This document shows positions 3,383-21,012 of a stretch of DNA of 64,000 bases, one piece after another. A program made the translations under genes and the position numbers. The stretch comes from a virus (Duplodnaviria > Caudoviricetes): positions 1 through 64,000 of IMG/VR virus record IMGVR_UViG_3300012041_000002; one strand, given 5' to 3'. Positions within the stretch are counted from its first letter, which is position 1, and every line of letters starts with the position of its first letter. The notes under the pieces were generated by a model that saw only the letters and a program-made list of their open reading frames with translations, was not told the origin of the DNA and searched no databases.

Positions 3383-3412
3383 TTGACAAACATTTACGCG
3401 ATGGCATATTAT
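3383..3412 (+). promoter_or_regulatory. sigma70-type promoter heading the early operon
   Basis: TTGACA(3383-3388)-18 bp-TATTAT. Confidence 0.55.
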
Positions 3413-4766: not shown

Positions 4767-4769
4767 GTC

Positions 4770-5108
4770 GTGGAACAAATCAAATTGTCCGAGGCCATTC
4801 GCAAGGGTGCCAAGATGCATCCCAAGTGCCGCGGAAAGCTGTATACAAGCCGCTGGGACAAGCAAGAGAAACGGTGTGTCGTAACGGGCACATGCGCGAT
4901 GGGGGCTGCTTACTTCGGTGCTGGGTTACACCCCGGCCACGGTGCGTTCATCGAAAGTGCCCTTGGGTATAGCACAAGTTATGTTATGGCTCAACACCCC
5001 ATCACAAACGACACGCTGCCCCTTGACAACATCATAACACGTTTGAATGATTTTTTCGGGTGGAGCCGGCCTCGCATAGCTCGCTGGCTAGAAAGTATCG
5101 GGTACTAG
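4770..5108 (+). CDS. paralogue family, subtype A (A1)
   Basis: KLSEAIRKGAKMHP...TCAMGAA...LNDFFGWSRPRIARWLESIGY. Confidence 0.8.
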   Translation: MEQIKLSEAIRKGAKMHPKCRGKLYTSRWDKQEKRCVVTGTCAMGAAYFGAGLHPGHGAFIESALGYSTSYVMAQHPITNDTLPLDNIITRLNDFFGWSRPRIARWLESIGY

Positions 5109-5109
5109 C

Positions 5110-5358
5110 ATGATTACACCCAGACTAGCCACGTATTGTATGGAGAGATGGAACGGTTCCACATGGGAACCGTTCCCTACAAGGGTTGCTGATAAACAGG
5201 GGTTTCGCCTGCTTCACCACAATGCCGACGCCGAGGTGGTTGTCAGCAGGGCAGGTACGTACAGGGTAGCACGAGGCAATTCCTACACAAGGCCATTCCC
5301 TGTGGCTCACGGTAAAAGTGTGGTGTTCGGTTTTCATGGGTATGTGCGCACCGCATAG
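5110..5358 (+). CDS. hypothetical protein
   Basis: 82-aa ORF in operon. Confidence 0.6.
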   Translation: MITPRLATYCMERWNGSTWEPFPTRVADKQGFRLLHHNADAEVVVSRAGTYRVARGNSYTRPFPVAHGKSVVFGFHGYVRTA

Positions 5359-5591
5359 TGCGTAGGTGAGGATTAGCTTCCTCACTAATGCTCCCCCACC
5401 TACCATCTTCCTCAATACGTAGCTCCTCCTGTGTGCGTATGCTTGTGTGGTTTGGTGTTGGGGCATCAGTGAGGGGGTTCCCCTCTTGTTGAGCATGTGA
5501 TACCGGGCTTTTTTATGGAGTGGCAAAGAGCGTGTGTCACATGGGAAATTTTGCTACTGGGGCATCAGCCCATATGGGAAAGGAGATATGT

Positions 5592-5951
5592 ATGCCTGAG
5601 CAACCCGAAACTCGTAAGTTATCAGCCCTCATACGAGAAGGGGCCAAGTTACACCCCCAGGGGTTTGGGGCTTATCGTACCTGGGATAAGGGTGTTCTGG
5701 AGTCTACATGTGTCGTTGGGGCGGCTATGGAAGCTGCTCACCTATCTGTGAGTACGTGGGGCTACACCCCAACAAGTCGAGACTTGAACAAGGTTCTTGG
5801 GTGGAAAAGAAGTAGCGACGTTCCCATCATACCATACCCAAACGGTGAATTTTCACCTAGCCGAATTTATTCGGTAATTATCTACCTCAATGATATGTGT
5901 GGGTGGAGCCGTGAGGCCATAGCAGATTATCTCGCTAGTAAAGGGCTGTAG
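5592..5951 (+). CDS. paralogue family, subtype A (A2)
   Basis: KLSALIREGAKLHPQGFG...TCVVGAA...LNDMCGWSREAIADYLASKGL. Confidence 0.8.
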   Translation: MPEQPETRKLSALIREGAKLHPQGFGAYRTWDKGVLESTCVVGAAMEAAHLSVSTWGYTPTSRDLNKVLGWKRSSDVPIIPYPNGEFSPSRIYSVIIYLNDMCGWSREAIADYLASKGL

Positions 5952-6045
5952 CCTTCTATACGCATGAGGTAGAGGAGTGAGGGTGTGGGGGCTGGTGCTG
6001 GGAGTGTCATTATGCGGTATCCGCACATATCGAAAGGAGAAATGT

Positions 6046-6312
6046 ATGCCACAACTCACCGTCGAGGATATTGTACGTGTGCCTGACTTTGATGAACAGG
6101 CAACCATCACCCTGCCTGTCTGGAAGATAACCCACGCAATCACGGCTGCGATAGTGGCCCTCGGGGGTACTGACATAGATGCCGAGATAGATGTTCGTGG
6201 GGATATAGGGGAGAGTGCCTGCGAGATGCTCTGGGCTCTCTTCCATGATACCGTGGGCGGGGAACGCACCCTGCTCTGGGAAGCAAACCTAAAGGAGAAA
6301 CTAAATGTCTAA
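6046..6312 (+). CDS. hypothetical protein
   Basis: AAGGAG RBS; acidic 88 aa. Confidence 0.65.
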   Translation: MPQLTVEDIVRVPDFDEQATITLPVWKITHAITAAIVALGGTDIDAEIDVRGDIGESACEMLWALFHDTVGGERTLLWEANLKEKLNV

Positions 6313-6706
6313 GCGTCTTACACCATATCGACAAGTGGCCGAGGATTTGCAGGCTGCATACGATTGGCTCGACTCACCTGAGAAGCACTGCACTAATGGC
6401 TACTTCGGTACCAGTAATGGAGGGGATGATTGGCACATGGAAACCGATGTCCTAATCCAACGTGCCGAGCAGGGTAGCGTCAAGTGTGCCTGCCTGTACG
6501 GGGCGTTGTGCATCGTCACCAAAAACCCCAACATACCCACAATGACTCGCCATCAGCAGCTCATCGAGGATTATGCCACCAGCAAGTATAACCTGGAAGC
6601 AACGATAGTCAACGATAAGAAGGGGTACGAGGCCGCTAGAGATATTCTGGCCGGTGCCCGTAGGTTAGCCTTACGCATGGGGAGGGTGAAACACAATGTC
6701 GGCTAA
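6305..6706 (+). CDS. paralogue family, subtype B (B1; DUF6197-like)
   Basis: HCTNGYFG...CACLYGAL...VNDKKGYEAARDILAGARRLA. Confidence 0.8.
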   Translation: MSKRLTPYRQVAEDLQAAYDWLDSPEKHCTNGYFGTSNGGDDWHMETDVLIQRAEQGSVKCACLYGALCIVTKNPNIPTMTRHQQLIEDYATSKYNLEATIVNDKKGYEAARDILAGARRLALRMGRVKHNVG

Positions 6707-7109
6707 TTATACACAAATCGCAGAGGACTTCGGCAAAGCATATGACTGGCTGAATAAGCGCAGCCGCCACTGCACTAATGGCAGCTTTGGTGTCTACGAA
6801 AGTGGTGCCTCCAGTGGCACATATAGCCTTTATTTTCTGTTGCAGCATAAGGACGAGGTAAAGTGCGCCTGCGTGTACGGAGCACTTGCCATTGCGACTG
6901 ATAATCCGAAGGTAAACCTTCCAATCACTGTACACGAGCAGATACTCGAGACTGCCGCTCGGGCACTGGCCGACAAAAAGGGCTGGGAAGAACACTGGGC
7001 CACACAAATCAATGATACCTATGGCTACGCAGCCGCACGCCAGCTATTGCGCAGCGCCAGAAAATTGGCTTTGCAAAGGGCAAAGGAGGAAGCCGGTGAA
7101 CAAGTTTAG
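6696..7109 (+). CDS. paralogue family, subtype B (B2)
   Basis: HCTNGSFG...CACVYGAL...INDTYGYAAARQLLRSARKLA; visible DNA similarity to B1. Confidence 0.8.
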   Translation: MSANYTQIAEDFGKAYDWLNKRSRHCTNGSFGVYESGASSGTYSLYFLLQHKDEVKCACVYGALAIATDNPKVNLPITVHEQILETAARALADKKGWEEHWATQINDTYGYAAARQLLRSARKLALQRAKEEAGEQV

Positions 7110-7455
7110 CAAGGTATCGGACGCGATAGAGGCAGGTATCCCCCTGTGTGAGCAATGTTTCGGGTTCACATCTGATGTTGATAAAAATCAGGCGTGCGCA
7201 CTGGGAACCGCTGCCGTAGCTGTACTAGGGGAGCTAAAGGGGCCGAATATTTACATGGGGAAGGCTTTGGACATATGCCAAGAAGCCGTGGTGCCCCTGT
7301 TGGACGCCGTGCCCCCAACAGCTCAACATTATGAGGAAGCTACTGAGGGTGGTGGAGATGGGCTCAGGGTTTATTCGTATGTTCTCTACCTGAACGATGA
7401 GCTCCATTTATCCCGGGAGAATATCATTCAACTCCTGCGAGAGCAGGGGCTGTAA
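7096..7455 (+). CDS. paralogue family, subtype A (A3)
   Basis: KVSDAIEAG...ACALGTAA...LNDELHLSRENIIQLLREQGL. Confidence 0.75.
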   Translation: MNKFSKVSDAIEAGIPLCEQCFGFTSDVDKNQACALGTAAVAVLGELKGPNIYMGKALDICQEAVVPLLDAVPPTAQHYEEATEGGGDGLRVYSYVLYLNDELHLSRENIIQLLREQGL

Positions 7456-7465
7456 GGAGAAAATA

Positions 7466-7843
7466 GTGAACAAACCGTCTGAGAATTTGCGCAGGGCTTT
7501 GCGCTTCCTGAACACCCACCATATCTGCCGCAACGGTACGTTCGGCACTAATGTAAGGGGTGGGTGTTTTCTCACCCCCCAGGCCACCCAGGCATGCCCG
7601 GAAGAGGATGTCTACTCGGTATGTGCTATTGGTGCTTTGGCTAGGTTTGTATCTCACCGGCACAGTCCCTGGAGCACCAGTGAGGGTATGCTCTTAGATA
7701 GAGCTGCCAAGGAATATTCCAAGGATAACCAGATAGGTTATGGGGTGATAACCAGCATCAACGATAACCTGGGCAAGAATGCTGTCCGGTGGATATACAA
7801 GCGTGCCATCGAGCTGGCCGAGGCTAACGAAAGGAGTAGCTAA
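7466..7843 (+). CDS. paralogue family, subtype B (B3)
   Basis: CRNGTFG...VCAIGAL...INDNLGKNAVRWIYKRAIELA. Confidence 0.75.
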   Translation: MNKPSENLRRALRFLNTHHICRNGTFGTNVRGGCFLTPQATQACPEEDVYSVCAIGALARFVSHRHSPWSTSEGMLLDRAAKEYSKDNQIGYGVITSINDNLGKNAVRWIYKRAIELAEANERSS

Positions 7844-7844
7844 C

Positions 7845-8060
7845 ATGTACTGCGATATAAACTTCCCAACCAAGAAATCCCTACGAGAGGCTGTCAAGGA
7901 GAATCGCAGGGTGGGTGTCTACCAGCCGAATAATTTTTTCGGTGTAACCCCTCCCCTGAACGGTGAGGTAGTTGTCGTAGGCCCACACTTCCCAAAACCC
8001 CATACGTGGGGTGCGACGGTGGAGTTGCGAGAGGGCTGGATTGTAAGGGTGGTGAGATAG
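7845..8060 (+). CDS. conserved phage hypothetical protein
   Basis: NFPTKKSLREAV...GPHFPKPHTW; recalled as a common phage family. Confidence 0.7.
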   Translation: MYCDINFPTKKSLREAVKENRRVGVYQPNNFFGVTPPLNGEVVVVGPHFPKPHTWGATVELREGWIVRVVR

Positions 8061-8062
8061 CC

Positions 8063-8446
8063 ATGCCAAGACAAATATCTGCTATTAGTATCCTGCGCAA
8101 AGCAGACAAGTGGTTCAACAGCTCCAAACGGCTGACTCGTGACGGCTCATTTGGGCACACGGAATCTGGTTTGAGAATACTCCACGCATCTGATATGTCC
8201 TTGTATGTGTCACCAGAAACCCCCATGAAGTGCATGTGCTCATTGGGGGCTGTGTACTATTTCGGCAAGAATAGCTATAACCCCGGCTCCTTACGTGCTG
8301 AAAGTCTACTTAGCAATGCTGCTAACGAGATTTTCAACACAGGCATAGTCACTGTCAACGATTTGTACGGCTTCGATGCCGTGAAGAAGGTATTCTCCCG
8401 TGCAATCGAAATGGAAGATGGAGGGTATACGCATGAAACCATCTGA
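8063..8446 (+). CDS. paralogue family, subtype B (B4)
   Basis: TRDGSFG...CMCSLGAV...VNDLYGFDAVKKVFSRAIEM. Confidence 0.78.
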   Translation: MPRQISAISILRKADKWFNSSKRLTRDGSFGHTESGLRILHASDMSLYVSPETPMKCMCSLGAVYYFGKNSYNPGSLRAESLLSNAANEIFNTGIVTVNDLYGFDAVKKVFSRAIEMEDGGYTHETI

Positions 8447-8816
8447 GCTTATAGGCAAAGTCGAAGCCTACTTCGAGAACCCCAACCATTTTACACAGGG
8501 TGCCTGGGGGAAGGATGCAAAGGGTAATACTCTTGGGTTTGATGAGTTGCAGGAGATAGCCAGAGGTACAGATGCCCGGAGGCGTAGTGTTAATTGCATG
8601 TGTACCAAAGGTGCCCTTGGCTACTTCGCAGCCGAAACTGTTACACGGTGGGAAGATGAGGACGAGGCCGATATATGTTTACAGAGGGCCATACTCGAAG
8701 TACCCTCACCATTCGCTTATATCAGTGTAACAACCTTCAACGACAATTCCCAGCTAGAAGATATACGCGGAGTCTTGAAGCGTGCTAGGGAACTTGCCCT
8801 AGCCAACAATCGCTAG
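8433..8816 (+). CDS. paralogue family, subtype B (B5; DUF6197-like)
   Basis: FTQGAWGKDAKGN...CMCTKGAL...FNDNSQLEDIRGVLKRARELA. Confidence 0.8.
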   Translation: MKPSELIGKVEAYFENPNHFTQGAWGKDAKGNTLGFDELQEIARGTDARRRSVNCMCTKGALGYFAAETVTRWEDEDEADICLQRAILEVPSPFAYISVTTFNDNSQLEDIRGVLKRARELALANNR

Positions 8817-8829
8817 AAAGGAGAATAAT

Positions 8830-9184
8830 ATGCCAAAAGCCAACATGCCGCTCTCCCAGGCTATGAGGGAGGGGGCTAAATTGCACCCCCCAAGCCTTCG
8901 GTAAACTACGAAAATCGTGTGGGGGTAGCTATTGCACCTGCGCCCTTGGTGCTGCCCTTGAAGCTACAGGGGTAAAGCCAAAAGGTTTTACGTATAACCT
9001 CCTTGTAGAGAAATTTCCCTTTCTGATGATTTATGGGCAACACACGAATGGGGTTGTAAAAACGGCAACGAATCCTATGACTGGGCAGACTACTCTGCTT
9101 AGACATGTCATAGCCAACCTCAACGATACTCACAAATGGACACGAGAAGCAATCGCGGATTGGCTGGAAGAGCAGGGCTACTAA
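8830..9184 (+). pseudogene. paralogue family, subtype A (A4), frameshifted by one extra C in a C6 run at 8886-8891
   Basis: Reads MPKANMPLSQAMREGAKLHPPSLR*. Removing one C gives a 117-aa ORF with TCALGAA...LNDTHKWTREAIADWLEEQGY. Confidence 0.8.
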
Positions 9185-9312
9185 TATGCGCAGATATTGG
9201 GTACACATAGACAAGAGGTTGTTGGGTGGTTATGTGATAATTGTAGCCCAAGATTTCAAATTCCACCTGGGAAACCTTCACAAACGAGTAATCAGTAGAA
9301 GGTGGCACTAAT

Positions 9313-9687
9313 ATGGACATTTGGATTGGTATCACCAGCATAAATGAATCAGAGGGGTACACAATTTATAAGGAGGGCCCGAAACCTTATGAGGGGAAGG
9401 CTACCTCCCTCGGGGAGCTGTTCAGGGACTTGCAGGAGGAACATGGCCGGTGTGTGGGTAAGGTGTACGTGGACACCAAGAATGTAGAGGCTATACCTGT
9501 GGGGTGGGTATTCGAGAAGAAGGAGCTGTATCGGGACATCGATGAGCACTACACCAAGGCTACGTGGGTTTCGCTATACGAACCCCCACCCCCACCCCCA
9601 CGAATACACTACCACCCGTTAGAGGTGAGTCAATATAAGGGTAACGCCGAGGGCAGGAGGTTACGGTATGAGACAGGTAGTAATTGA
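9313..9687 (+). CDS. conserved phage hypothetical protein
   Basis: GELFRDLQEEHGRCVGKVYVD...PVGWVFEK. Confidence 0.7.
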   Translation: MDIWIGITSINESEGYTIYKEGPKPYEGKATSLGELFRDLQEEHGRCVGKVYVDTKNVEAIPVGWVFEKKELYRDIDEHYTKATWVSLYEPPPPPPRIHYHPLEVSQYKGNAEGRRLRYETGSN

Positions 9688-9943
9688 CAATCATGGGTAC
9701 GAGTTCGGAATTTATGCACACGAGGCTTGTACCCTGATGAATGACAGGGCAATTGTGCCCTGCCTTGAAGCCCACTGCACTCGCAACTATACCCGCAAGG
9801 CTTACCACCTGCCGGCATGGGGTGAGGGCTACGATGCACAGTGGGAGAGGACGAAACGGCTTCTCGCAGTGAGGAGATACATGGATAAGCAGAAAGGAGT
9901 TACGCATGGAACCGGGCAACTATCAGGGAGAATTAGAGCTTAA
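9668..9943 (+). CDS. hypothetical protein
   Basis: 91-aa ORF with His/Cys residues. Confidence 0.6.
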   Translation: MRQVVIDNHGYEFGIYAHEACTLMNDRAIVPCLEAHCTRNYTRKAYHLPAWGEGYDAQWERTKRLLAVRRYMDKQKGVTHGTGQLSGRIRA

Positions 9944-10009
9944 GCATGGGGTGTGGGAAGAGGTATCCCTACCAGAGGAAGCGATTACGAAATAGCTTAG
10001 GAGAAACCA

Positions 10010-10225
10010 ATGCCGTATTTCATCAAACATGTGCCCGTGGAAAGCTGGCTCGTCTATGTCGTAAAGGGTGCAGATGAGAACGAAGCGCTCGAGGATGATG
10101 AGGGCGAGTACCTTGGGTGCTTTGACACTGACAGTGGTAAAGCCTCAGAAATCGCCGCCGGGCCGTTCAATAAGCGTAGTGATGCCCTGGAAGATAGTGC
10201 AGCCGACGTGGAGTGGGAGGGGTAA
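10010..10225 (+). CDS. small acidic protein
   Basis: AGGAG RBS; D/E-rich. Confidence 0.7.
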   Translation: MPYFIKHVPVESWLVYVVKGADENEALEDDEGEYLGCFDTDSGKASEIAAGPFNKRSDALEDSAADVEWEG

Positions 10226-10227
10226 TC

Positions 10228-10497
10228 ATGGATAAGTTGCCAAATAGCGGGCGTCGAGCCCGCGTAGCTATGGGGTTTATAGGCAAGAGCAGCATTATCG
10301 GGAGAGGGGTGTGCCTCGGCCAAACCAACGTTCTGAACCCAAAGGCAGGGGCCGGCAATAGCACAATGACGTTCGCAATCGACGAGATAGTTGTTACAGA
10401 TGGACAAGGTGAGAAATCCTGCTTCCGACTGACACCGGGGTACAAGAAGGTTATCGTTGCGAAGAGCAACTTTTACTACAATTGGGAGGATACATGA
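10228..10497 (+). CDS. hypothetical protein
   Basis: tightly coupled ORF. Confidence 0.6.
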   Translation: MDKLPNSGRRARVAMGFIGKSSIIGRGVCLGQTNVLNPKAGAGNSTMTFAIDEIVVTDGQGEKSCFRLTPGYKKVIVAKSNFYYNWEDT

Positions 10498-10739
10498 GCA
10501 GAAAGAGGTTTCTTGGTAGGTATACCTTTAGGGGGAATACGTACCTACTAAGCTACACGGAAGGTGATACGTATCCTTTGAGGGCTTGCAGACTTAGTAT
10601 CTTTGGGATGGAGTCTTGTTTAGTTGGAACCGTCGAAGGAGTCAGTATGTATGTAATAGAGGCATTCGAGCCGGAGTTGCCCCCGCTACTCGCAGCATAC
10701 AAGCTCGCTACCCAACGTGGATATATAAAGGGGAACTAA
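10494..10739 (+). CDS. hypothetical protein
   Basis: GGAGG RBS; ATGA overlap. Confidence 0.6.
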   Translation: MSRKRFLGRYTFRGNTYLLSYTEGDTYPLRACRLSIFGMESCLVGTVEGVSMYVIEAFEPELPPLLAAYKLATQRGYIKGN

Positions 10740-10740
10740 A

Positions 10741-11232
10741 ATGTCATCACCCTGGCTAATAGGCGTCCTCAACGAGGACGGCACAGTGCGGAGCATCTCC
10801 GTTCACTGTGATGGTGGGGTGCAGCACGGTGGGCGTATTTTACACGCACATTACCTCACTATGCCCAAAATTGCGGCCCTCATAGAACTGGGCAACCTCT
10901 CAATACTCGGCCCGGAGATAGGGAAGGAACACGACTGGGACGAATATCGGGACACAATGAGTAATCCTGATGGTATGTATCAGAGGGGCTGGTGCAACTC
11001 CCGTCTACGGGACAGGAAGTATTGGTGGGATACCCCCGTCACATTCAACTCTGAGCAGGAGTATCGTCGAGAAACAAGTTACGGCGATTGGGAACAAGTG
11101 TATCTCTTCAAAAGCGGCGAATGGTGGCTCATAGATTACATGGACGATTTTGAAAATAAGTTCGGCTGGGTGAGGGTTGCCGACGCCCTGGCCGAATATG
11201 AAAGGAGCAATTTCAGTGCAGCGAATAGTTAG
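10741..11232 (+). CDS. conserved phage hypothetical protein
   Basis: IGVLNEDGTVRSISVHCDG...G.IL.AHY...LIELGNLSILG; resembles the common YCHWDG-type family. Confidence 0.7.
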   Translation: MSSPWLIGVLNEDGTVRSISVHCDGGVQHGGRILHAHYLTMPKIAALIELGNLSILGPEIGKEHDWDEYRDTMSNPDGMYQRGWCNSRLRDRKYWWDTPVTFNSEQEYRRETSYGDWEQVYLFKSGEWWLIDYMDDFENKFGWVRVADALAEYERSNFSAANS

Positions 11233-11698
11233 ACACAATCCACACCTGGTAGCGGCGATAGTAGCTCTGGCAGCGGTGATGCTGTTGGCCCATTATACGG
11301 ACTCCCAATTCTACCGGAGCCAGGCTTCCCGCACCCTCCCACCTTTGTCTCCTACACACGAGGAGGCACCACCTATTCCATGCAGGGAAGTAAGTTACAG
11401 GGGGTTCAGCAGGGACGTACTATCGGACAGAATAGCCCTCGTAACAATGCCCTACTTCGACTCAACCGACACACTGGACGCCGAGGGGTATATAGAGCCT
11501 GACTGGGGCGAGATACCCAAGAATAGGATTACATTCGCGTGCTGGGGGCTAAGTTTCGATGAACGTACCGGACACTGGGCTTACTCCTGCGGGCCATTCT
11601 ATGGCCCCGGGCAGAACCACGGACAACCATTCCTAATACTGGAACAGGATATGGCACTGCTCTTCGCGGAGTATGGTGCTTACGCAATAACCCGCTAG
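11216..11698 (+). CDS. membrane-anchored/secreted hypothetical protein
   Basis: N-terminal hydrophobic LVAAIVALAAVMLLA. Confidence 0.6.
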   Translation: MQRIVRHNPHLVAAIVALAAVMLLAHYTDSQFYRSQASRTLPPLSPTHEEAPPIPCREVSYRGFSRDVLSDRIALVTMPYFDSTDTLDAEGYIEPDWGEIPKNRITFACWGLSFDERTGHWAYSCGPFYGPGQNHGQPFLILEQDMALLFAEYGAYAITR

Positions 11699-11711
11699 GG
11701 GGGAGGTAAGT

Positions 11712-12912: not shown

Positions 12913-12914
12913 CT

Positions 12915-13157: not shown

Positions 13158-13160
13158 GAT

Positions 13161-13692: not shown

Positions 13693-13748
13693 AAGTGCCT
13701 ATAAGCCCGGCCTGAACAACCGGGTTTCGCAAATGAGGGTAGACATAG

Positions 13749-14456: not shown

Positions 14457-14680
14457 GCAACACAGAATACGTAGAGGTTAGTCACTTCACCCCCAACCAT
14501 ACCATACAGGTGAACTGCCTCGGTGGGTTGGTTGAGATACGAATAGAACAAACCGTCACTGGCCGCAGAGTAGTAATCATAAACCTCATAGACGACTATA
14601 GCTACTCAATCCTTCCTGTGTGGGAAGTATGCGCGGGGGGAACGAAACTGAGGATTGACAACATTCTGGATTATGACTGA
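14453..14680 (+). CDS. hypothetical protein
   Basis: ATGA coupling. Confidence 0.6.
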   Translation: MSNTEYVEVSHFTPNHTIQVNCLGGLVEIRIEQTVTGRRVVIINLIDDYSYSILPVWEVCAGGTKLRIDNILDYD

Positions 14681-14692
14681 GAGGAGTGGTAT

Positions 14693-14971
14693 ATGGATAG
14701 GCTAATTTTGGAAGCTGGTGTTTTGAAGCGCATCCACGTCAACAAGCACGTCATAGCCTCAAATCGCAAGCACGGTACCCAGGAGCCGGTGTACACCACC
14801 AAGTGTAAGGGCAAGACTTACATCAGTGAGTCTGTACACATAGAAGGCCCCTCGAAGGCAATCTATACCCCGGAAAAGCCACTGTCCTGTGGAGCAGTGG
14901 CCTACATAACCACTGTGGGGGCAGTCTGCCTCATCAATGTGAAGGTTAAGGAAAAAGTATGCTCACTGTAG
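14693..14971 (+). CDS. conserved phage hypothetical protein
   Basis: IHVNKHVI.SN.KHG..EPV...IEGPS...PEKPLSCGA. Confidence 0.75.
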   Translation: MDRLILEAGVLKRIHVNKHVIASNRKHGTQEPVYTTKCKGKTYISESVHIEGPSKAIYTPEKPLSCGAVAYITTVGAVCLINVKVKEKVCSL

Positions 14972-15297
14972 ATAATCTTACGCACACACCATACCCAACA
15001 CGCAGCCGGTACATCAACAGCTTCACCTACTTGCAGGGTGTCCTCGAGCAGAAACGAAACTTCATTTGCACGTTCAGAGTGGATGAGCAAAGCCTGGGTG
15101 CATGGGGGATGGTGCGTATCTACTTCTTGCACGATGAAGCTCCTGTAGAGATTACCGAGCATGTTGCCAACATTCTGGACTACGGCTGCTGTGGTGAGGG
15201 CATATTCGTGTCTCCCCAGCATAGGTATTCCATACCGGGAATGGTGGGTAGACTCCTGTTCGACAATGTGAGCAAATTCTATGCAGCCTGGCTGTGA
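14959..15297 (+). CDS. hypothetical protein
   Basis: 112-aa coupled ORF. Confidence 0.6.
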   Translation: MLTVDNLTHTPYPTRSRYINSFTYLQGVLEQKRNFICTFRVDEQSLGAWGMVRIYFLHDEAPVEITEHVANILDYGCCGEGIFVSPQHRYSIPGMVGRLLFDNVSKFYAAWL

Positions 15298-15324
15298 TAA
15301 GCAGTCAAGGGTAAGGAGTGAGGG

Positions 15325-15624
15325 ATGGGGAGCAAGAAATCGAAAACTCAGGTGTACCTGGGCTGCAAAGTGTTCTTCATAGAGATGCCATCGAACGGTA
15401 CAAAACATGGTATAAGGCTCATCAGCAACGAGGAGAAGTTCTGGGACTTGCTAACTTACGACGAAGCGTTCTATGAGCCGGAGGGCCCACTGGTAAACGG
15501 ACTTTATGTAGTGAAGGTGTACCCAGAAATCTCCGATGAGTACGCCATCAAACATATACGTAAGTGCATCAAGAAGGCCGGGCTAACCCCGATGGGCCTG
15601 ATTGGCACGAGTGGTAAGGAGTAG
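15325..15624 (+). CDS. hypothetical protein
   Basis: AAGGAG RBS. Confidence 0.65.
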   Translation: MGSKKSKTQVYLGCKVFFIEMPSNGTKHGIRLISNEEKFWDLLTYDEAFYEPEGPLVNGLYVVKVYPEISDEYAIKHIRKCIKKAGLTPMGLIGTSGKE

Positions 15625-15626
15625 AT

Positions 15627-15839
15627 ATGGATACGAAGCTGGAAGAGTTGAAGGCACTGCTCGACACCTTTCGAGGGTGTGATGCTAGTGCCGTATGTGC
15701 TTTCCTGCCCTACGAAAGTAGCTACAAGAAGATGTCCAAGAGGACAGCTCGCTTCTATCGCCTGATAAACGAGCTGATGCTCGTCATGCGTGACGATGGG
15801 CGGCCTTATTACATATTCGAGGAGGACGAAGATGCCTAA
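15627..15839 (+). CDS. hypothetical protein
   Basis: AAGGAG RBS. Confidence 0.6.
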   Translation: MDTKLEELKALLDTFRGCDASAVCAFLPYESSYKKMSKRTARFYRLINELMLVMRDDGRPYYIFEEDEDA

Positions 15840-16140
15840 AATAGGAAAGTACGTGCTCAAGAGTGACGACTACAATGATTATTCCCTTGTGGGGAGTTCA
15901 GTGTGGATAAGTGTTGACAATATCAGCGTTTACATACGTCGCCGGTTGGGGGATAGTGGGGTGTATGTTGAATTGATGCCTCGTGGGTATGAGGCTAACG
16001 TTGATGGCATCCTGAATGAAGCCTCGGCTTCGTCCGAGGACGCGCAGCGATACATAGACAGGAAAGTGCTAGAAGAGGAAGCTGCTCGTGAGGAAATTGA
16101 GCTGGCGGAAGCTGCTCGAGAGAAGGCCGAAGATGCCTAA
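15832..16140 (+). CDS. hypothetical protein
   Basis: GGAGG RBS; acidic C-terminus. Confidence 0.65.
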   Translation: MPKIGKYVLKSDDYNDYSLVGSSVWISVDNISVYIRRRLGDSGVYVELMPRGYEANVDGILNEASASSEDAQRYIDRKVLEEEAAREEIELAEAAREKAEDA

Positions 16141-16456
16141 ATATAACGTCCATATATACACCATCGTGCGTGTGAAGGTGTGCGGTGTAGAGGCCGAGTC
16201 GCCGGTGGAAGCCATTGAAGAAGCCAGAAAGAAACCCCACTACTACGACTTGTTCGACTATATACCAAACCTGAAACAGTATGGTGTGCGTGAGGCGGGG
16301 TGGGGTGCGAAGCATGACGGCTATCTGGTGGACGAAGAGGGTGACGAGGAGTATGAGAACTCCAAGTATTACAAGGACATCGGCGGCAACCCCGTAGAGG
16401 AGGTAGTGCCAACCTATGACGAACTCATCGAAGCTGACGGTACGCAGGCGCCGTAG
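16133..16456 (+). CDS. hypothetical protein
   Basis: MPKYNVHIYTIVRVKV..VEAES..EAI. Confidence 0.65.
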   Translation: MPKYNVHIYTIVRVKVCGVEAESPVEAIEEARKKPHYYDLFDYIPNLKQYGVREAGWGAKHDGYLVDEEGDEEYENSKYYKDIGGNPVEEVVPTYDELIEADGTQAP

Positions 16457-16682
16457 GCTAAACTCGGCCAACATACGTGTGTACAGGACTAATGATGCCG
16501 GTACCGGGTTTCGTTACGAAGCTCAGGATAGTGCCGGAAAGCTGATTGGGGGTTGTGCGGAAACCGCACTCTCTGGCAGTGAGGGTAGCAGGCGCTCGGC
16601 TCTTATGGCTGTTGTGCGGTGCGTGGAGGATACCGGAAGGTTTGACAGGGTTTCCCTGCCCACCGAGCTTACAGAACTCTAG
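16416..16682 (+). CDS. hypothetical protein (start uncertain)
   Basis: 88-aa ORF. Confidence 0.45.
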   Translation: MTNSSKLTVRRRRRLNSANIRVYRTNDAGTGFRYEAQDSAGKLIGGCAETALSGSEGSRRSALMAVVRCVEDTGRFDRVSLPTELTEL

Positions 16683-16689
16683 CATAACG

Positions 16690-16713
16690 CTCAAATATTT
16701 GATATAATTTGAG
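16690..16713 (+). promoter_or_regulatory. extended -10 promoter overlapped by operator palindrome
   Basis: TCAAATATTTGA (16691-16702) overlapping and abutting TG-A-TATAAT (16703-16708 hexamer). Confidence 0.6.
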
Positions 16714-16733
16714 TGACACTCAAAGGAGGTAGG

Positions 16734-17066
16734 ATGTCTGATTACTTGTTTACAAGACAGTTCTTTGGTTACGCAGACACCGACAAGAAGCGTACCGTAG
16801 AGGATAGGTTGCAAGAGGCGATGCTCAGGTATACGGAAAAGTACGGCAACCAGCCCGATATGATAGTGGTGAACGCATCGGACGTCGAGCAACTTGTTGC
16901 GGAGATGCGCAATAAGCCTTTCTTGGTAGAGGGGCAGCCACCTGCCGAGGCACCCCTTGATGCCATGGCCGAGGTTGGTAAGTTCTGCGGAGTGGGTGTC
17001 TACACCCGGCCATACATACGCCCCGGCCACTTTTGGCTGGGTATCCATGAGGAGAAAGTAGCATGA
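16734..17066 (+). CDS. small conserved protein resembling a Chloroflexota hypothetical family
   Basis: A..RY.EKYG..PD...VN...V...PGHFWLG pattern (from memory). Confidence 0.6.
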   Translation: MSDYLFTRQFFGYADTDKKRTVEDRLQEAMLRYTEKYGNQPDMIVVNASDVEQLVAEMRNKPFLVEGQPPAEAPLDAMAEVGKFCGVGVYTRPYIRPGHFWLGIHEEKVA

Positions 17067-17269
17067 GTTGGGACGACATAGACGACGATAATTACTCAGA
17101 CGGTATGACACCCCCACACTACAATGCCGGCAACGCCGGCTGGATACCACTCGACGATGATAGGAACTTTGACAGCTACTGCACATGTGGATGCCAATGT
17201 GAGCAGAAAGTTGAAGATGAGGGAAGGTGTGAGGACTGCCGCAAGGGTAACCACGTAGAGGCTTGTTGA
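17063..17269 (+). CDS. small acidic Cys-rich (Zn-binding?) protein
   Basis: CTCGCQC...CEDC...H. Confidence 0.6.
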   Translation: MSWDDIDDDNYSDGMTPPHYNAGNAGWIPLDDDRNFDSYCTCGCQCEQKVEDEGRCEDCRKGNHVEAC

Positions 17270-17487
17270 TAATGTGTGCCAAACCGTGGAGTGAGGCAGC
17301 GCACCTCACTCGCCTGGACAAGCATATCAGCAAATGCTTCGATATGAACACCCCGGCCTCGAAGAGCAGTTCAGAACGTTTCCGTAAATGGTACGAGAAA
17401 CGTAGCCAGGAGCCGGGATTTGTCGAAGAGTTCAAGGAATACAAGCGCAACAAGATGCGCGAGTATCGAACAAAAAGGAGAAAGTAA
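17263..17487 (+). CDS. basic hypothetical protein
   Basis: K/R-rich C-terminus. Confidence 0.5.
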   Translation: MLIMCAKPWSEAAHLTRLDKHISKCFDMNTPASKSSSERFRKWYEKRSQEPGFVEEFKEYKRNKMREYRTKRRK

Positions 17488-18233
17488 TGACTAGCTTTGC
17501 GATACCAGTACAACGCGGCTGTGGGAGCCGCCAGAAGGGGGGCGTTTACTTCGAGACTGCCCATGGCCCCGGAGGAAAGCCTGTGGAGTTCTTCCTGATA
17601 GACTCTCCCCTGCCGGTGCCCGCGGAACTGAACCTCTCTTCCATAGGGGTGCAGCTCGTGGAGTTCAACGGTGTCTACCACCTGATAGATGTCGTGGGCA
17701 AGGAGTATTACCCGAACGTGGCCGATTTTGTAGAGGAGGTGCGCAGGTTTGGGGTGTCTCGCCGGCTACCTTCTTCGCTCGACTTTTCGAAGATTACTCC
17801 CGAAACCAACCTTTATGCAGTGCATGACAGGGCCATAGTCAAAAACACCGGTGACTGGTTTGAGTATCCGGGCAACGAGTCTCCTGTCTGCCCCAAGGGG
17901 CTGGAGAACCACCCTCGAGGCGTGGAGTGCTGCGCCTGGGTGTGGTGGAATGATGTGGAAGGTGGGCACACACCCTCGCTGGCCGACTCCCTATTCGGCC
18001 CGGAAGAGTTGACAGACGTGTATGATTTGGAAAAAACCCGCATAGTGCGGGCTATGCCCTCGTTCACCTACCGGGCACACTCTCGCCCGGAGAAGATTAC
18101 CCCCAACTATGAGAGGGGCTTCTTCGCACGCTTCCCCATTGGTAGGCTGGTGGTGGTGAAGGGTGAGGATAACACCGAAAAGTTAGACAAGGTGCGCAAG
18201 GCACACACGCTGGTGGAGGAAGTGGATGAGTAA
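17487..18233 (+). CDS. conserved hypothetical protein
   Basis: RGCGSRQKGGVY...YPNVADFVEEVRRFGVSRR. Confidence 0.75.
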   Translation: MTSFAIPVQRGCGSRQKGGVYFETAHGPGGKPVEFFLIDSPLPVPAELNLSSIGVQLVEFNGVYHLIDVVGKEYYPNVADFVEEVRRFGVSRRLPSSLDFSKITPETNLYAVHDRAIVKNTGDWFEYPGNESPVCPKGLENHPRGVECCAWVWWNDVEGGHTPSLADSLFGPEELTDVYDLEKTRIVRAMPSFTYRAHSRPEKITPNYERGFFARFPIGRLVVVKGEDNTEKLDKVRKAHTLVEEVDE

Positions 18234-18735
18234 ATCTACCACAGCGCAACGTATCGCCACCCTGGAAAATGCTCTGAAAGAAACCCTGTGGATGGCGAGG
18301 AGATATGCCGATGGCCGCGCTACTTACGCGGCCAGCTCCTACAATTCCGTAGTTCGACAGTTACTGGAACTGGGGGTGAGCCTGCCAAAAACGGACGGCA
18401 CACTTTGGGCGCGTGATGGGATGGGGCGCAGGTATGATGGGCTGACTGACGCCGAGGCCGAGGAAGGCGCCAAACCACCAGATTGGCGTGAGGTGCTCAA
18501 CACCCAGATACAGCTAAGGTTGCAGGAGAGGGTGTGGGAATTAGAGGGGGCGCTCGATAGGGTTGATTGGAGAGATGTGGGCCCCATAAACAACGATATG
18601 TGCAGGGAGTGTGAGGCCACCATTGACGCCGAAACCCAAGAATTAGCTGACGGGAGCGGGTGGGATTACATAGTCCACAAAGCCGACTGCCCTATAGCCG
18701 TACTAAAAGGAGTGAAAAGTGAGAAAACTATCTGA
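18226..18735 (+). CDS. hypothetical protein with C-terminal Zn-binding motif
   Basis: CREC...HKADCP. Confidence 0.7.
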   Translation: MSKSTTAQRIATLENALKETLWMARRYADGRATYAASSYNSVVRQLLELGVSLPKTDGTLWARDGMGRRYDGLTDAEAEEGAKPPDWREVLNTQIQLRLQERVWELEGALDRVDWRDVGPINNDMCRECEATIDAETQELADGSGWDYIVHKADCPIAVLKGVKSEKTI

Positions 18736-19099
18736 ACTGATACATGAGGGTAGCCAGTGCCGCCCGCAAGGCTTCAATGGCTTCGTACAACTAGCCGGGG
18801 AGAATGACGAAATACGCACCTGTGCCATCGGCGCCGCTATGGAGGCTGTTGCTTCTGCTCCAACCCGTGATGGTTGTTCCTATTCATTCCATAGTTGGGA
18901 ATCGAAAGGGTATACAGGGTTACGCGAAGCACTTGGGATAGACATAGAGGACGATGATGAAGCCAGCATACCCTACCCACCAGAGTTAGGTTACAAGAGA
19001 GAACGCGACTGTATTCTGGAGGTTGTCGCTGTTCTGAACGATGAATATAAGTGGACGCGAGAGAAGATAGCCGATTACCTCGAAAGTATAGGATATTAG
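18719..19099 (+). CDS. paralogue family, subtype A (A5)
   Basis: KLSELIHEG...PQGF...TCAIGAAMEA...LNDEYKWTREKIADYLESIGY. Confidence 0.8.
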   Translation: MRKLSELIHEGSQCRPQGFNGFVQLAGENDEIRTCAIGAAMEAVASAPTRDGCSYSFHSWESKGYTGLREALGIDIEDDDEASIPYPPELGYKRERDCILEVVAVLNDEYKWTREKIADYLESIGY

Positions 19100-19107
19100 G
19101 GGGAACC

Positions 19108-19335
19108 ATGAAACTCGCTATGTCACCGGAAGAGTTTAGCGCGTGGCTTGAGAGGGAAAACTCCTGGCAATTCCCGGCCAAACCATACACAGATTGGCAG
19201 TGGTGGCTCGCAAGGGTTGATACACTAGCCAACCAGGAGATTACCCAACAGACAACCCTCAAAGAATTATCAGAAATCCATGATGCACGTTACATACTTG
19301 AACGCTTCGCAGCGTTCTCCGAAAAGCCCACTTAG
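19108..19335 (+). CDS. hypothetical protein
   Basis: 75-aa ORF. Confidence 0.55.
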   Translation: MKLAMSPEEFSAWLERENSWQFPAKPYTDWQWWLARVDTLANQEITQQTTLKELSEIHDARYILERFAAFSEKPT

Positions 19336-19344
19336 GAGGAACAA

Positions 19345-20178
19345 ATGAACACCGTAATCGAAGAAACAACCCAACTCAAACTAACCCCGGACACCCCTTA
19401 CACACCTGAACTACGCAGCATCTTCCTGACGCTGCTGCCACCAGACGAGGAGATATTTAGCAAGGAGCCGTCGCCTTCATTCGTGCGCAGCGTCGAGGCT
19501 TTTGGGGTGCTGCAACCTATCGGAGTGGTGCCCAGCACCGTATCCCCAGGTGGGTATGAGATAGGATTCGGCAGGCGCCGCGTCAAGTCTGCCCGCAAGG
19601 TAGGTATGCTGGAGATACCTGCTCTGGTGTTTCCCGAGGGCACACCGCTGCATATCCTGGCCGAGATAGAGAACAACCAGCGCTCTACTGACAAAACTCA
19701 GGACTTGCGCTTCATTTCTCAAATGGTTCGTGACGGGGCAGACGAGAAGGAAATCTCCAACATCACTGGCATGGCGATACCCACTATACGTAAGATGCTG
19801 CGCTTCACTTCGCTGGTGCCGGAGCTGCAAGAAGCCTTTATGGACGGGCGCATGGCCCTGACTGCCGCTGAGAGGGCTGTGAGACTGCCCAAGAGCAGCC
19901 AGCAGGAGCTGGTGGGGGTGCTGGAACAGGCGGGCAAACTCACCGAAAAGGATGTCCACACAGCCAACAAGGTATCCTCGGCAGCAGCTCTGCAATCCGT
20001 AAGTAGCCTGTTCGATGCAGCCCCGGAAGAGGTGCCCTGGTACATGCGCGTCAAGGACGACATCACCCGAGCCCTCGGCGCCATACACCCGGCACACCCA
20101 CGCCGGGCGGAGTGGGAGAGAAAGTTGGAGGAGCTGGTGGGGGAAATCTACGCAGACGGAGCAAAGTACAATGCCTAA
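19345..20178 (+). CDS. ParB/Spo0J-family protein
   Basis: SV..FGVLQPIGV, GRRRVKSA..G..EIPA, ENNQRS, then HTH region. Confidence 0.85.
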   Translation: MNTVIEETTQLKLTPDTPYTPELRSIFLTLLPPDEEIFSKEPSPSFVRSVEAFGVLQPIGVVPSTVSPGGYEIGFGRRRVKSARKVGMLEIPALVFPEGTPLHILAEIENNQRSTDKTQDLRFISQMVRDGADEKEISNITGMAIPTIRKMLRFTSLVPELQEAFMDGRMALTAAERAVRLPKSSQQELVGVLEQAGKLTEKDVHTANKVSSAAALQSVSSLFDAAPEEVPWYMRVKDDITRALGAIHPAHPRRAEWERKLEELVGEIYADGAKYNA

Positions 20179-20674
20179 ACATATGTACGAAGTATACAAT
20201 TTGCTAGGGGTTGTCGAGATAAACGTAGCTCTGGCCTGGGCGCTTATCGAGTCTGACGGCAGAGAGCCCAGCGGGTACGCCGATGTGCAGGAGCAGGGGC
20301 TCAAAATGTTCGGGCCACTGGTGGAGGAAGAGGAAGCTCCCAAATACATAAACCTGTTCTCTTACTATGTGGACAAAGAAAAAGCCCTCACCGACGAATC
20401 CGTAGATGTCACAGTGCCGGTGATTCTCGCGGATATTGGGGAGTACGGCACCCCTATTATCGATGGTGTCCATCGCATGTATAAGGCGTATGCCACCGGG
20501 GTAGAAACTATACCGGTGCATAAACTGTCTGCGATAGAAACCTACTGTCTCATGGGAGAGGGCAGGAGCCTTCTCTTCCACAATGATGGGCAAACACGCA
20601 ACAATAGTCGCATAGAAGAGATAAAGCAACTCCAGAAGAAGCTCAAGCCGCTGAAAGGAGCGATAGCAGCATGA
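20171..20674 (+). CDS. ParB/sulfiredoxin-like domain protein
   Basis: PVILAD...IIDGVHRMYKA..TGVETIPV. Confidence 0.65.
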   Translation: MPKHMYEVYNLLGVVEINVALAWALIESDGREPSGYADVQEQGLKMFGPLVEEEEAPKYINLFSYYVDKEKALTDESVDVTVPVILADIGEYGTPIIDGVHRMYKAYATGVETIPVHKLSAIETYCLMGEGRSLLFHNDGQTRNNSRIEEIKQLQKKLKPLKGAIAA

Positions 20675-21012
20675 TGAAAGCATCAGAACTGTTACGAGAA
20701 ACACGAAAACTCATCGAAAAACCCGAAAACTGGACAACCGGCGCCTGGGCAAAGGACGCCAAAGGCAAGAATACACACGAAACCAGCCCAAACGCGGTTT
20801 GTTGGTGTGCCTTCGGGGCGTTCCTGAAAGCATCGGATGCGGCTTATAACTCTGGCGAGTATAGAGAGCAACTTTACTTCGCTGCGGAGGCTCTAACCAA
20901 GTGTGCTGGTGGTAGTGTCATAACCTTCAACGATTTGCACACCCACGAAGAGGTACTGGCCCTGTTTGACACCACTATAGCACAGCTGGAAGCTGTCGAG
21001 GCAGCAGCATGA
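20671..21012 (+). CDS. paralogue family, subtype B (B6; DUF6197-like)
   Basis: WTTGAWAKDAKG...AVCWCAFGAF...FNDLHTHEEVLALFD. Confidence 0.8.
   Translation: MMKASELLRETRKLIEKPENWTTGAWAKDAKGKNTHETSPNAVCWCAFGAFLKASDAAYNSGEYREQLYFAAEALTKCAGGSVITFNDLHTHEEVLALFDTTIAQLEAVEAAA

What the first reader, a model, noticed from the sequence alone, without database searches (positions are those of the whole stretch)
4770..21012. Eleven-member family of small Cys-x-x-GA...ND paralogues in the early region
Subtype A (4770, 5592, 7096, 8830 frameshifted, 18719) shares KLSxxIxxG, TC(A/V)xG(A/T)A and LNDxxxW(S/T)RExIAxxLxxxG(Y/L). Subtype B (6305, 6696, 7466, 8063, 8433, 20671; DUF6197-like from memory) shares a xxG(x)FG/GAW motif, (C)xCxxGA and (V/I/F)ND followed by an amphipathic helix. 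Both keep a Cys-x-x-Gly-small core and a terminal ND while the intervening sequence varies widely. Nine copies lie within 4.4 kb and A/B types are interleaved. Such expansion in a size-limited genome suggests diversifying selection. Inference: a panel of variant binders, for example anti-defence sponges, decoys or hetero-oligomers, each tuned to a different host target or signal molecule.
Basis: partly seen in the sequence, partly recalled or inferred. Interest (0 to 1): 0.8.

Follow-up and report, generated by a model that had tools for sequence, protein, structure and literature searches.

The report
Eleven-copy DUF6197-superfamily gene battery in phage
A 76-kb soil phage spends about 5% of its genome on eleven diverged copies of one small protein fold (six catalogued as DUF6197, five from a sister family absent from the Pfam copy used here); the copies are real, but what they do is still untested.

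Summary
The 76,209-bp phage genome has exactly eleven members, all on the + strand. Five are type A, one of them frameshifted. Six are type B. Nine lie within 4770-9184.

Type B is Pfam DUF6197 / PHROG 762. B6 and B5 pass the curated cut-off. B1-B4 are divergent and join through profiles.

Type A has no model in the Pfam copy used here, but it shares the B fold:
- AlphaFold models have the same order of elements.
- At least 28 of the top 50 viral structure neighbours are shared.
- hhalign gives 62.8%.
- 20 of 88 A members touch the DUF6197 model.

The ends are conserved and the middle is variable.

The "diversifying selection" reading is not supported as stated. The paralogues are old (15-44% identity), and the A copies each sit beside a different outside relative. 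Type A also occurs as a single-copy, syntenic chromosomal gene in Acidobacteriota.

No known fold, enzyme family or defence family matches. Function is unknown. My best guess is a battery of early host-interaction binders on one scaffold. A thiol-dependent enzyme or ligand pocket is a close rival.

This scan has seen DUF6197 arrays in other phages before. New here are the A sister family, its cellular clade and its split forms.

The parts
4770..5108 (+). A1, 112 aa, type A (sister family of DUF6197)
   Evidence: A-family HMM E 8e-27. BLASTP to A4 1e-15 and to A2 2e-13. The same gene is called in sibling assemblies.
5592..5951 (+). A2, 119 aa, type A; the copy that was modelled
   Evidence: HMM E 2e-27. 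AlphaFold model has pLDDT 90.8 and pTM 0.83.
6305..6706 (+). B1, 133 aa, divergent DUF6197
   Evidence: Pfam DUF6197 20.8 bits, below the cut-off. B-profile E 2e-29. 44% identical to B2.
6696..7109 (+). B2, 137 aa, divergent DUF6197; overlaps B1 by 11 nt and A3 by 14 nt
   Evidence: Pfam 18.9 bits. B-profile E 1e-27.
7096..7455 (+). A3, 119 aa, the most divergent type A copy (Trp after ND replaced by Leu)
   Evidence: A HMM E 5e-19. Pfam DUF6197 E 0.06 over residues 29-116. Long branch in the tree.
7466..7843 (+). B3, 125 aa, divergent DUF6197
   Evidence: Pfam 23.4 bits, just under the cut-off. B-profile E 4e-29. Also the best cross-hit of the A HMM, at E 8e-4.
8063..8446 (+). B4, 127 aa, divergent DUF6197
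   Evidence: No Pfam hit alone. B-profile E 3e-28. BLASTP to B1 2e-12 and to B3 3e-12.
8433..8816 (+). B5, 127 aa, DUF6197; overlaps B4 by 14 nt
   Evidence: Pfam 30.9 bits, over the cut-off. PHROG 762 E 4e-4.
8830..9184 (+). A4, type A, frameshifted in this record
   Evidence: Two frames join at the C run. The intact 117-aa allele is P0003. A HMM E 1e-26 on the downstream frame.
8886..8891 (+). C6 homopolymer that breaks A4 (C5 in the intact allele)
   Evidence: C5 in L035, L037, L038, L040 and L041. C6 in L036, L039 and the window. This C is the only difference from the window over the aligned stretch in L037, L038, L040 and L041; L035 has one further substitution; L036 and L039 are 100% identical.
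18719..19099 (+). A5, 126 aa, type A, outlying copy
   Evidence: A HMM E 1e-29, the best of the five.
20671..21012 (+). B6, 113 aa, mainstream DUF6197, outlying copy; the copy that was modelled
   Evidence: Pfam 57.6 bits and PHROG 762 E 2e-15. AlphaFold model has pLDDT 95.9. Nests among ordinary DUF6197 in the tree.
3383..3412 (+). Promoter-like site upstream of the + strand block (context, inferred)
   Evidence: TTGACA-18-TATTAT, 11 of 12 matches. The total number of promoter-like sites in the region is at chance level, so this is a lead only.

Best explanation
The eleven genes encode small cytoplasmic proteins built on one scaffold, the DUF6197 superfamily.

The scaffold, in order:
- an N-terminal helix;
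- a beta-hairpin carrying a Gln/Asn-Gly-x-Phe/Trp-Gly turn;
- a helix whose first turn is the invariant Cys-x-x-Gly-Ala;
- a variable insert;
- a helix ending in the invariant Asn-Asp;
- a last amphipathic helix.

Two old branches of this superfamily are interleaved in one densely packed + strand block of small genes. These are type B (DUF6197 proper) and type A (a sister family).

Most likely (inferred, not shown), each copy keeps the scaffold's junction: the Cys helix start and the Asn-Asp. The copies differ in the insert and in surface charge (pI 4.5 to 9.5). On this reading the set is a battery of stoichiometric binders or modulators aimed at different host macromolecules early in infection, for host takeover or counter-defence.

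Shown here: the copies, the family links, the shared predicted fold, the conserved-ends and variable-middle pattern, and the unusual copy number.

Inferred: early expression, binding, and any target.
For: Copy number and family links:
- Exactly eleven members in the genome.
- B is DUF6197 / PHROG 762.

A and B share a fold:
- The order of secondary-structure elements is the same in two confident models.
- At least 28 of the top 50 BFVD neighbours are shared.
- hhalign gives 62.8%, E 7e-5, with the three motifs in register.
- 20 of 88 A members hit Pfam DUF6197 at E<=1.
- 26 of the 30 nearest named ESM Atlas clusters carry DUF6197.

Variation between copies:
- Ends are conserved and the middle is variable.
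- Surface charge is very diverse.

Distribution and context:
- Both families are mainly viral: the Atlas clusters are 50-100% viruses.
- They sit in early or accessory gene blocks of other phages, next to ERF, RusA, methylases and repressors.
- The DUF6197 profile reaches 31,607 cluster representatives, and 2-3-domain fused forms exist.
- B1-B5 fall on one side of a tree branch (support 94), which fits duplication within this lineage.
- The genes are tightly packed, with 11-14 nt overlaps, and no convincing + strand terminator lies inside the block.
Against: - The Cys is invariant in all 88 type A and all 77 type B sequences aligned, with no Ser or Ala replacement. Together with the invariant Asn-Asp, and with Ser, Arg, Trp and Glu conserved in type A, this looks more like a chemical site than a scaffold alone.
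- Type A is a single-copy, syntenic chromosomal gene in Acidobacteriota, without phage neighbours. Those copies form one tight clade under evident purifying constraint. A pure counter-defence role does not explain that.
- The A copies are old and each has its own outside relative, so this is not a recent arms-race burst.
- No binding partner, oligomer state or expression datum is available.
Confidence: 0.4

Rival explanations
1. The superfamily is a small thiol-dependent enzyme or small-molecule-binding domain. The Cys at the start of a helix (lowered pKa), the Asn-Asp and the aromatic residue four positions later form one pocket. The variable insert sets substrate or ligand specificity, and the eleven copies handle different substrates or signals.
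For: - Cys, Gly, Asn and Asp are invariant in both branches.
- Position Asp+4 is Trp in type A, His in mainstream type B, and Tyr, Phe, Lys or Leu in B1-B5.
- The cellular single-copy clade is strongly conserved, as expected for a biochemical function useful without a phage.
- Each A paralogue has its own outside relatives, as expected for sub-functionalised enzymes.
- A Macro-domain gene lies directly upstream at 3817-4353. This is context only.
Against: - No similarity to any enzyme fold. Foldseek against the PDB gives nothing at E<=0.001, and VIA Z is at most 3.6 for A and 6.3 for B, all generic helical matches.
- No His is shared across the superfamily.
- The proteins are only 110-135 aa, with no cofactor motif.
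- Cys-x-x-Gly-Ala is made of small residues and could serve close helix packing. Asn-Asp and Ser/Thr-x-x-Glu read as helix-capping boxes, which is a structural explanation.
Confidence: 0.3
2. The copies are subunits that pair with each other, as homo- or hetero-dimers or larger assemblies. The array encodes a combinatorial set of complexes rather than eleven independent proteins.
For: - Many top DUF6197 relatives are single chains with two or three copies of the domain.
- Type A occurs split in three viral contigs. One small gene for the N-half lies beside one to seven genes carrying only the C-half, some fused to larger unrelated N-terminal parts. This implies the two halves can meet as separate chains.
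- Neighbouring genes in the window overlap by 11-14 nt, which suggests translational coupling.
Against: - Elsewhere the families are mostly single-copy: 1-2 per phage locus and one per Acidobacteriota genome. Partners of a second type are therefore not required.
- Fused forms can arise trivially from stop-codon loss in tandem arrays.
Confidence: 0.15
3. The array is largely evolutionary debris: duplicated accessory genes drifting without distinct functions.
For: - A4 is frameshifted in this record and in two other assemblies.
- A3 and B4 sit on very long branches.
Against: - Ten of eleven frames are intact despite only 15-44% identity between copies.
- All copies keep the invariant residues.
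- The A4 break is a single-base polymorphism, with the intact allele in five of eight assemblies.
- Genome space in a 76-kb phage is limited.
Confidence: 0.05

Closest known systems
Pfam DUF6197 (PF19698) / PHROG 762
   Same: B6 and B5 pass the curated cut-off, and B1-B4 join through profiles. The motif set is the same: hairpin Gly motif, Cys-x-x-Gly-Ala, Asn-Asp plus an amphipathic helix. The proteins are phage-borne, about 100-140 aa, and of unknown function.
   Different: B1-B5 are very divergent and lack the His-Thr-His that follows Asn-Asp in mainstream members. The five A copies do not reach the model (best E 0.06). Here the family is interleaved with its sister family.
Type A family: 'KLSEAIREGAK...CALGAA...LND..WTRE.IADWLE..GY'; absent from the local Pfam copy, possibly Pfam 38 DUF8296 (PF26948)
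   Same: A1-A5 are clear members, with 680 relatives at E<=0.01 and none carrying a Pfam domain on record. ESM Atlas neighbours include clusters where 23-34% of members carry DUF8296.
   Different: Elsewhere there are 1-2 copies per phage and one per Acidobacteriota genome; here there are five. Many relatives carry a Cys-Pro-x-x-Cys knuckle in the insert, which the window's copies lack. Identity with DUF8296 could not be tested because the model is not in the library.
DUF6197 tandem arrays noted earlier by this scan in other phages (e1-2148048, e1-5369679, e1-5750380)
   Same: Several to many diverged DUF6197 copies lie side by side in a phage, with conserved ends and a variable middle.
   Different: Those notes describe DUF6197 only. 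Here a second, sister family is mixed into the array. The three B6-like viral records I checked myself held only 1-2 copies.
Phage signal sponges and decoys (Tad1, Tad2, Acb2 and similar), recalled from the literature
   Same: Small, early, cytoplasmic phage proteins.
   Different: No sequence or fold match to any solved structure. Known sponges are, from recall, usually single-copy and oligomeric. Type A has a conserved chromosomal clade in bacteria.

Membership tests
Pfam DUF6197 (PF19698) | Score at or above the curated gathering cut-off (24.6 bits) | tested here: met
   B6 57.6 bits and B5 30.9 bits. B3 23.4, B1 20.8 and B2 18.9 are below the cut-off, and B4 has no hit. These four are members only through the B profile (E 1e-27 to 3e-28) and BLASTP chains.
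Pfam DUF6197 (PF19698) | The same cut-off applied to the five type A copies | tested here: not met
   Best is A3 at 14.1 bits, E 0.06; the other A copies give no hit. The A copies are therefore filed as a sister family, not as DUF6197.
DUF6197 superfamily (A plus B) | Same predicted fold and motif order | tested here: met
   Models are confident, at pLDDT 90.8 and 95.9, with the same element order. At least 28 of the top 50 BFVD neighbours are shared. hhalign gives 62.8%, E 7e-5. The Atlas DUF6197 cluster aligns at TM 0.50/0.56 over 89 residues. The two models could not be superposed directly because no coordinates are given.
Pfam DUF8296 (PF26948) | Match to the family model | not testable with these tools
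   The model is absent from the local Pfam copy. The only pointer is an Atlas lead, with 23-34% of members of neighbouring clusters carrying the family.
Papain-like / NlpC-P60 cysteine peptidases | Cys at a helix start plus a conserved His and a third polar residue; papain-like fold | tested here: not met
   No His is conserved in type A or in B1-B5. The Atlas structure match to an NlpC/P60 cluster has TM 0.41/0.26, and the PDB row for RipD has E 6.4.
Known anti-phage defence components (PADLOC-DB) | Match to any model | tested here: not met
   No hit at E<=0.1 for ten copies; A4, the frameshifted copy, was not submitted. The library holds defence proteins, not anti-defence proteins.
Solved anti-defence sponges or any solved fold | Sequence or structure similarity to a PDB chain | tested here: inconclusive
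   Foldseek against the PDB gave no row at E<=0.001 for model A. VIA wide gave a best Z of 3.6 for A and 6.3 for B, all generic helical matches. Profile-against-PDB gave only designed alphaRep repeats for A and nothing for B.
SAM domain / HEAT-like repeats | Match over a whole domain | tested here: not met
   Weak Pfam SAM_1/SAM_2 hits (best E 0.006) and the alphaRep hits cover only the last 30 or so residues, the Trp-Thr-Arg-Glu-x-Ile-Ala-Asp-Trp-Leu helix. This is a local likeness.

The most novel reading that the evidence does not exclude
The DUF6197 superfamily fold is a two-piece docking module. The N-half holds the hairpin and the Cys helix. The C-half holds the Asn-Asp helix and the last helix. 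The two halves lock together through the invariant residues.

Phages use this in three ways:
- whole, as in this window;
- fused in tandem;
- split, with one N-half 'hub' gene beside up to seven C-half genes carrying different N-terminal parts, to assemble variable cargo on a common partner.

Under this reading, the eleven copies here would be a combinatorial host-targeting kit. The invariant Cys could add a covalent or redox-controlled lock.
Probability: 0.12. Interest if true: 0.75.

Novelty: new variant of a known kind. Interest (0 to 1): 0.5.

Why it matters
DUF6197 is one of the larger unexplained phage protein families. The B profile alone reaches about 31,600 cluster representatives.

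This genome adds three handles for working on it:
- A sister family that widens the superfamily and pins down which residues are truly invariant.
- A conserved single-copy cellular clade in Acidobacteriota. It could in principle be studied by deleting the gene in a cultured member, if one carries it, without needing the phage.
- Natural split and fused forms that show where the fold comes apart.

If the family turns out to be a counter-defence or host-takeover scaffold, or a new thiol enzyme, the result would annotate tens of thousands of phage genes.

Tried and rejected
No result:
- DNA and protein searches of GenBank phages gave nothing for 4000-22000, for A2, or for the capsid protein, so no cultured relative is known.
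- PHROGs gave nothing for type A.
- NCBIfam and PADLOC gave nothing.
- The search for longer, fused relatives of B gave nothing.
- Literature: one genome announcement mentions DUF6197. Nothing was found for DUF8296 or PHROG 762, and a wider search on tandem paralogue arrays gave nothing useful.

Rejected matches:
- The alphaRep hits of the A profile to the PDB were rejected. They come from one 30-residue helix motif repeated in a designed repeat protein.
- The Foldseek and VIA PDB rows were rejected as generic helical matches: TetR C-domains, eIF2B, GluRS anticodon domains.

Method notes:
- hhalign with only the window's copies was too shallow (4% and 15%). Deeper alignments were needed.
- The DUF6197 alignment was too variable for a collection scan.

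Host:
- The integrase/tRNA-like stretch found only generic 40-nt tRNA matches in 401 Acidobacteriota genomes.


Full report
**What is there**

The window is bases 1-64000 of a 76,209-bp viral record; the first and last 123 bases are identical. It carries an integrase, a Macro-domain gene, family A DNA polymerase, primase, DnaB helicase, terminase, portal and an SU10-type capsid protein.

From about 3.4 kb to 24 kb, nearly all plausible genes are small and on the + strand. They lie behind a near-consensus promoter-like site at 3383-3412. The total count of such sites in the region is at chance level.

Gene calls on sibling assemblies give the same starts.

- BLASTP links all five A copies to each other and all six B copies to each other, but never A to B.
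- HMMs built from wider alignments find exactly these eleven in the whole genome and nothing else.
- Together they take about 4.1 kb, roughly 5% of the genome.

**The frameshifted copy**

A4 is broken by one extra C in a C6 run at 8886-8891. Seven other assemblies of the same phage exist.

- Five carry C5 and an intact 117-aa gene; two carry C6 like the window.
- Over up to 9.5 kb compared in the C5 assemblies (L037, L038, L040, L041), this C is the only difference from the window. The short contig L035 has one further substitution. The two C6 assemblies match 100% over up to 17 kb.
- So the break is a polymorphism or an assembly variation at a homopolymer, not an old pseudogene.

**Family assignment**

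Type B is Pfam DUF6197 and PHROG 762.

- B6 (57.6 bits) and B5 (30.9 bits) pass the 24.6-bit cut-off.
- B3, B1 and B2 fall just below it, and B4 has no hit on its own.
- A profile of the B copies and their relatives reaches 31,607 cluster representatives at E<=0.001. Many of the best are single chains with two or three copies of the domain.

Type A has no Pfam, PHROG or NCBIfam model in the copies at hand. It is nonetheless a large, well-conserved family.

- It has 680 relatives at E<=0.01, none with a Pfam domain on record.
- ESM Atlas neighbours hint that Pfam 38 may now hold it, or a near relative, as DUF8296. That model is not in the local library, so I could not test it.

**Do A and B share a fold?**

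Yes, on several partly independent lines.

1. AlphaFold models of A2 (pLDDT 90.8) and B6 (pLDDT 95.9) have the same order of elements. These are: N-terminal helix, beta-hairpin, a helix that starts at the invariant Cys, a helical or variable middle, a helix carrying Asn-Asp, and a last helix.
2. Searched against predicted viral structures, at least 28 of the top 50 neighbours of the A model are also in the top 50 of the B model. They include the best B matches, such as the Lullwater, Motura and ACP17 proteins.
3. Profile-profile comparison rises with alignment depth from 4% to 62.8% (E 7e-5). A permissive alignment puts the three motifs in register: the Gln/Asn-Gly-x-Phe/Trp-Gly turn, Cys-x-x-Gly-Ala, and Asn-Asp.
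4. Of 88 A members, 20 touch the Pfam DUF6197 model at E<=1, best 5.6e-5.
5. Within the genome, the next-best hits of each HMM after its own members are mostly copies of the other type.
6. In the ESM Atlas, 26 of the 30 nearest named clusters of A2 carry DUF6197. A DUF6197 cluster aligns to the Atlas model at TM 0.50/0.56.

I could not superpose the two models directly, because the tools do not return coordinates.

**Pattern of conservation**

Both types have conserved ends (about 1.1-1.6 bits of column entropy) and a variable, gap-rich middle (3.0-3.7 bits).

- All five A copies end exactly 18 residues after Asn-Asp, while the Cys-to-Asn-Asp spacing runs from 51 to 72. In B the spacing is 40-47.
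- Cys, Gly, Asn and Asp are invariant in the 88 A and 77 B sequences aligned. Type A also keeps a Ser, a Gly, an Arg, a Trp and a Glu.
- The residue four positions after Asp is Trp in A, His in mainstream B, and Tyr, Phe, Lys or Leu in B1-B5.
- Net charge differs widely among the eleven, with pI from 4.5 to 9.5.

**Age and origin of the copies**

Pairwise identities are 15-44%.

- In a quick maximum-likelihood tree, the five A copies do not group. Each sits next to a different metagenomic protein, although most forks are weakly supported.
- B1-B5 fall on one side of a branch (SH-aLRT 94). Long-branch attraction is a caveat, and the outgroup set is biased towards B6-like sequences.
- B6 nests inside mainstream DUF6197.

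This fits old duplication within the lineage for B1-B5. For the A copies and B6 it fits separate, long-standing lineages or acquisitions. It is not a recent burst.

Selection could not be measured, because the only close relatives are essentially identical.

**Copy number elsewhere**

| Sample | Copies found |
|---|---|
| 29 viral loci holding type A | 1-2 within 10 kb on each side |
| 5 further phage-like contigs | 1-2 |
| 3 viral records with B6-like genes | 1-2 DUF6197 |
| 2 large A-bearing viral records | no DUF6197 |

The mixed eleven-copy set is therefore unusual in what I sampled. Earlier notes of this scan report DUF6197-only arrays of 4 to 17 copies in other phages. I did not re-test those.

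**A cellular clade**

A scan of one genome per prokaryote species found type A in 52 loci, mostly Acidobacteriota (many Vicinamibacterales). Each locus with a full-length match holds one copy, bar one short contig with two, and none has DUF6197 nearby.

- The flanks are ordinary chromosomal genes: cyclophilin, M3 oligopeptidase, DUF349, YajQ-like DUF520, 2-thiouracil desulfurase, a Rieske oxygenase, a LytTR response regulator and homoserine dehydrogenase.
- At least four different syntenic arrangements occur, each shared by four to nine genomes.
- Four whole genomes hold exactly one copy each.
- In a sample of 121 genomes of that order, 42 have a match. Forty have a single match; the other two have a pair of partial matches.
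- 47 of the 50 copies form one well-supported clade with short branches.
- This clade, like many other relatives, carries a Cys-Pro-x-x-Cys knuckle in the variable insert. The window's copies lack it.

So type A is not confined to phages, and it has a function that is kept in uninfected cells.

**Split forms**

In three viral contigs the type A fold is split.

- L031 and L033 each have a 293-339-aa protein that ends in the C-half: the insert end, Asn-Asp and the last helix. Right after it comes a 75-82-aa ORF for the N-half: helix, hairpin and Cys helix.
- L030 has seven consecutive C-half genes with different N-terminal parts and one N-half gene.

Together with the fused tandem DUF6197 chains, this shows that the fold comes apart at the variable middle. 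It suggests, by inference only, that the halves can meet as separate chains.

**What it does**

No tool result gives a function.

- There is no match to a solved structure beyond generic helical bundles.
- There is no defence-system model, no informative domain fusion and no paper.
- The complex predictor was closed.

I rank the readings as follows.

1. A battery of early host-interaction binders on one scaffold (0.4). This is favoured by the phage bias, the position in an accessory block, the variable middle and the diverse surface charge.
2. A thiol-dependent enzyme or ligand pocket (0.3). This is favoured by the never-substituted Cys, the other invariant polar residues and the conserved cellular clade.
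3. Subunits that pair (0.15). This is favoured by the fused and split forms and by the overlapping neighbour genes.
4. Drifting duplicates (0.05).

The invariant residues also have a plain structural reading. Cys-x-x-Gly-Ala is a run of small residues suited to tight helix packing, and Asn-Asp and Ser/Thr-x-x-Glu look like helix caps. I therefore do not treat them as proof of catalysis.

**Verdict**

The selection and anti-defence claims remain untested and are partly weakened.

DUF6197 arrays are not new to this scan. What is new is the sister family, its mixing with DUF6197 in one array, its chromosomal clade in Acidobacteriota, and its split forms.

Noticed in passing
L030:9737-12350; L031:9101-10310; L033:9347-10446: Type A fold split into separate genes. 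One small N-half gene (helix, hairpin, Cys helix) lies beside one to seven genes that carry only the C-half (Asn-Asp helix plus last helix). Some C-halves sit at the end of 225-339-aa proteins. In this subfamily the C-halves end in a shared Asp-Leu-Ser/Glu-Phe tail instead of Ile-Gly-Tyr.
   Followed up: partly
L043-L092 (for example L051:7965-8348, L076:7986-8333): Single-copy chromosomal type A genes in Acidobacteriota MAGs. They fall in at least four conserved synteny groups next to housekeeping genes and form one tight clade. They carry a Cys-Pro-x-x-Cys knuckle in the insert, possibly a zinc site.
   Followed up: partly
window 8886-8891: C5/C6 length variation is the only difference from the window in L037, L038, L040 and L041 across up to 9.5 kb (L035 has one further substitution). 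It switches A4 between intact and broken. This could be real population heterogeneity or homopolymer assembly noise.
   Followed up: partly
window 3817-4353: Macro-domain protein (Pfam E 2e-10; PHROG 335, annotated 'phosphatase', E 4e-38) directly upstream of the array, followed by a 138-aa Cys-rich protein at 4350-4766 with no family hit.
   Followed up: partly
window 5110-5358, 5977-6312, 7845-8060: Three small + strand ORFs (82, 111 and 71 aa) lie inside the array and belong to neither type. The first two have no PHROG hit; the third was not scanned.
   Followed up: partly
window 19345-20178: A ParB-like gene (ParB_N plus HTH_ParB) lies between the outlying copies A5 and B6. The adjacent ORF at 20168-20674 has no Pfam hit.
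   Followed up: partly
type A C-terminal helix, e.g. window 5901-5948: The Trp-Ser/Thr-Arg-Glu-x-Ile-Ala-Asp-Trp-Leu-Glu-x-x-Gly motif gives weak hits to the first helix of SAM domains and to HEAT-like designed alphaRep proteins. This is a local likeness only and a trap for automated annotation.
   Followed up: yes
window 13749-14456: 235-aa protein matching DUF7227 and GP88 in the same + strand block.
   Followed up: no
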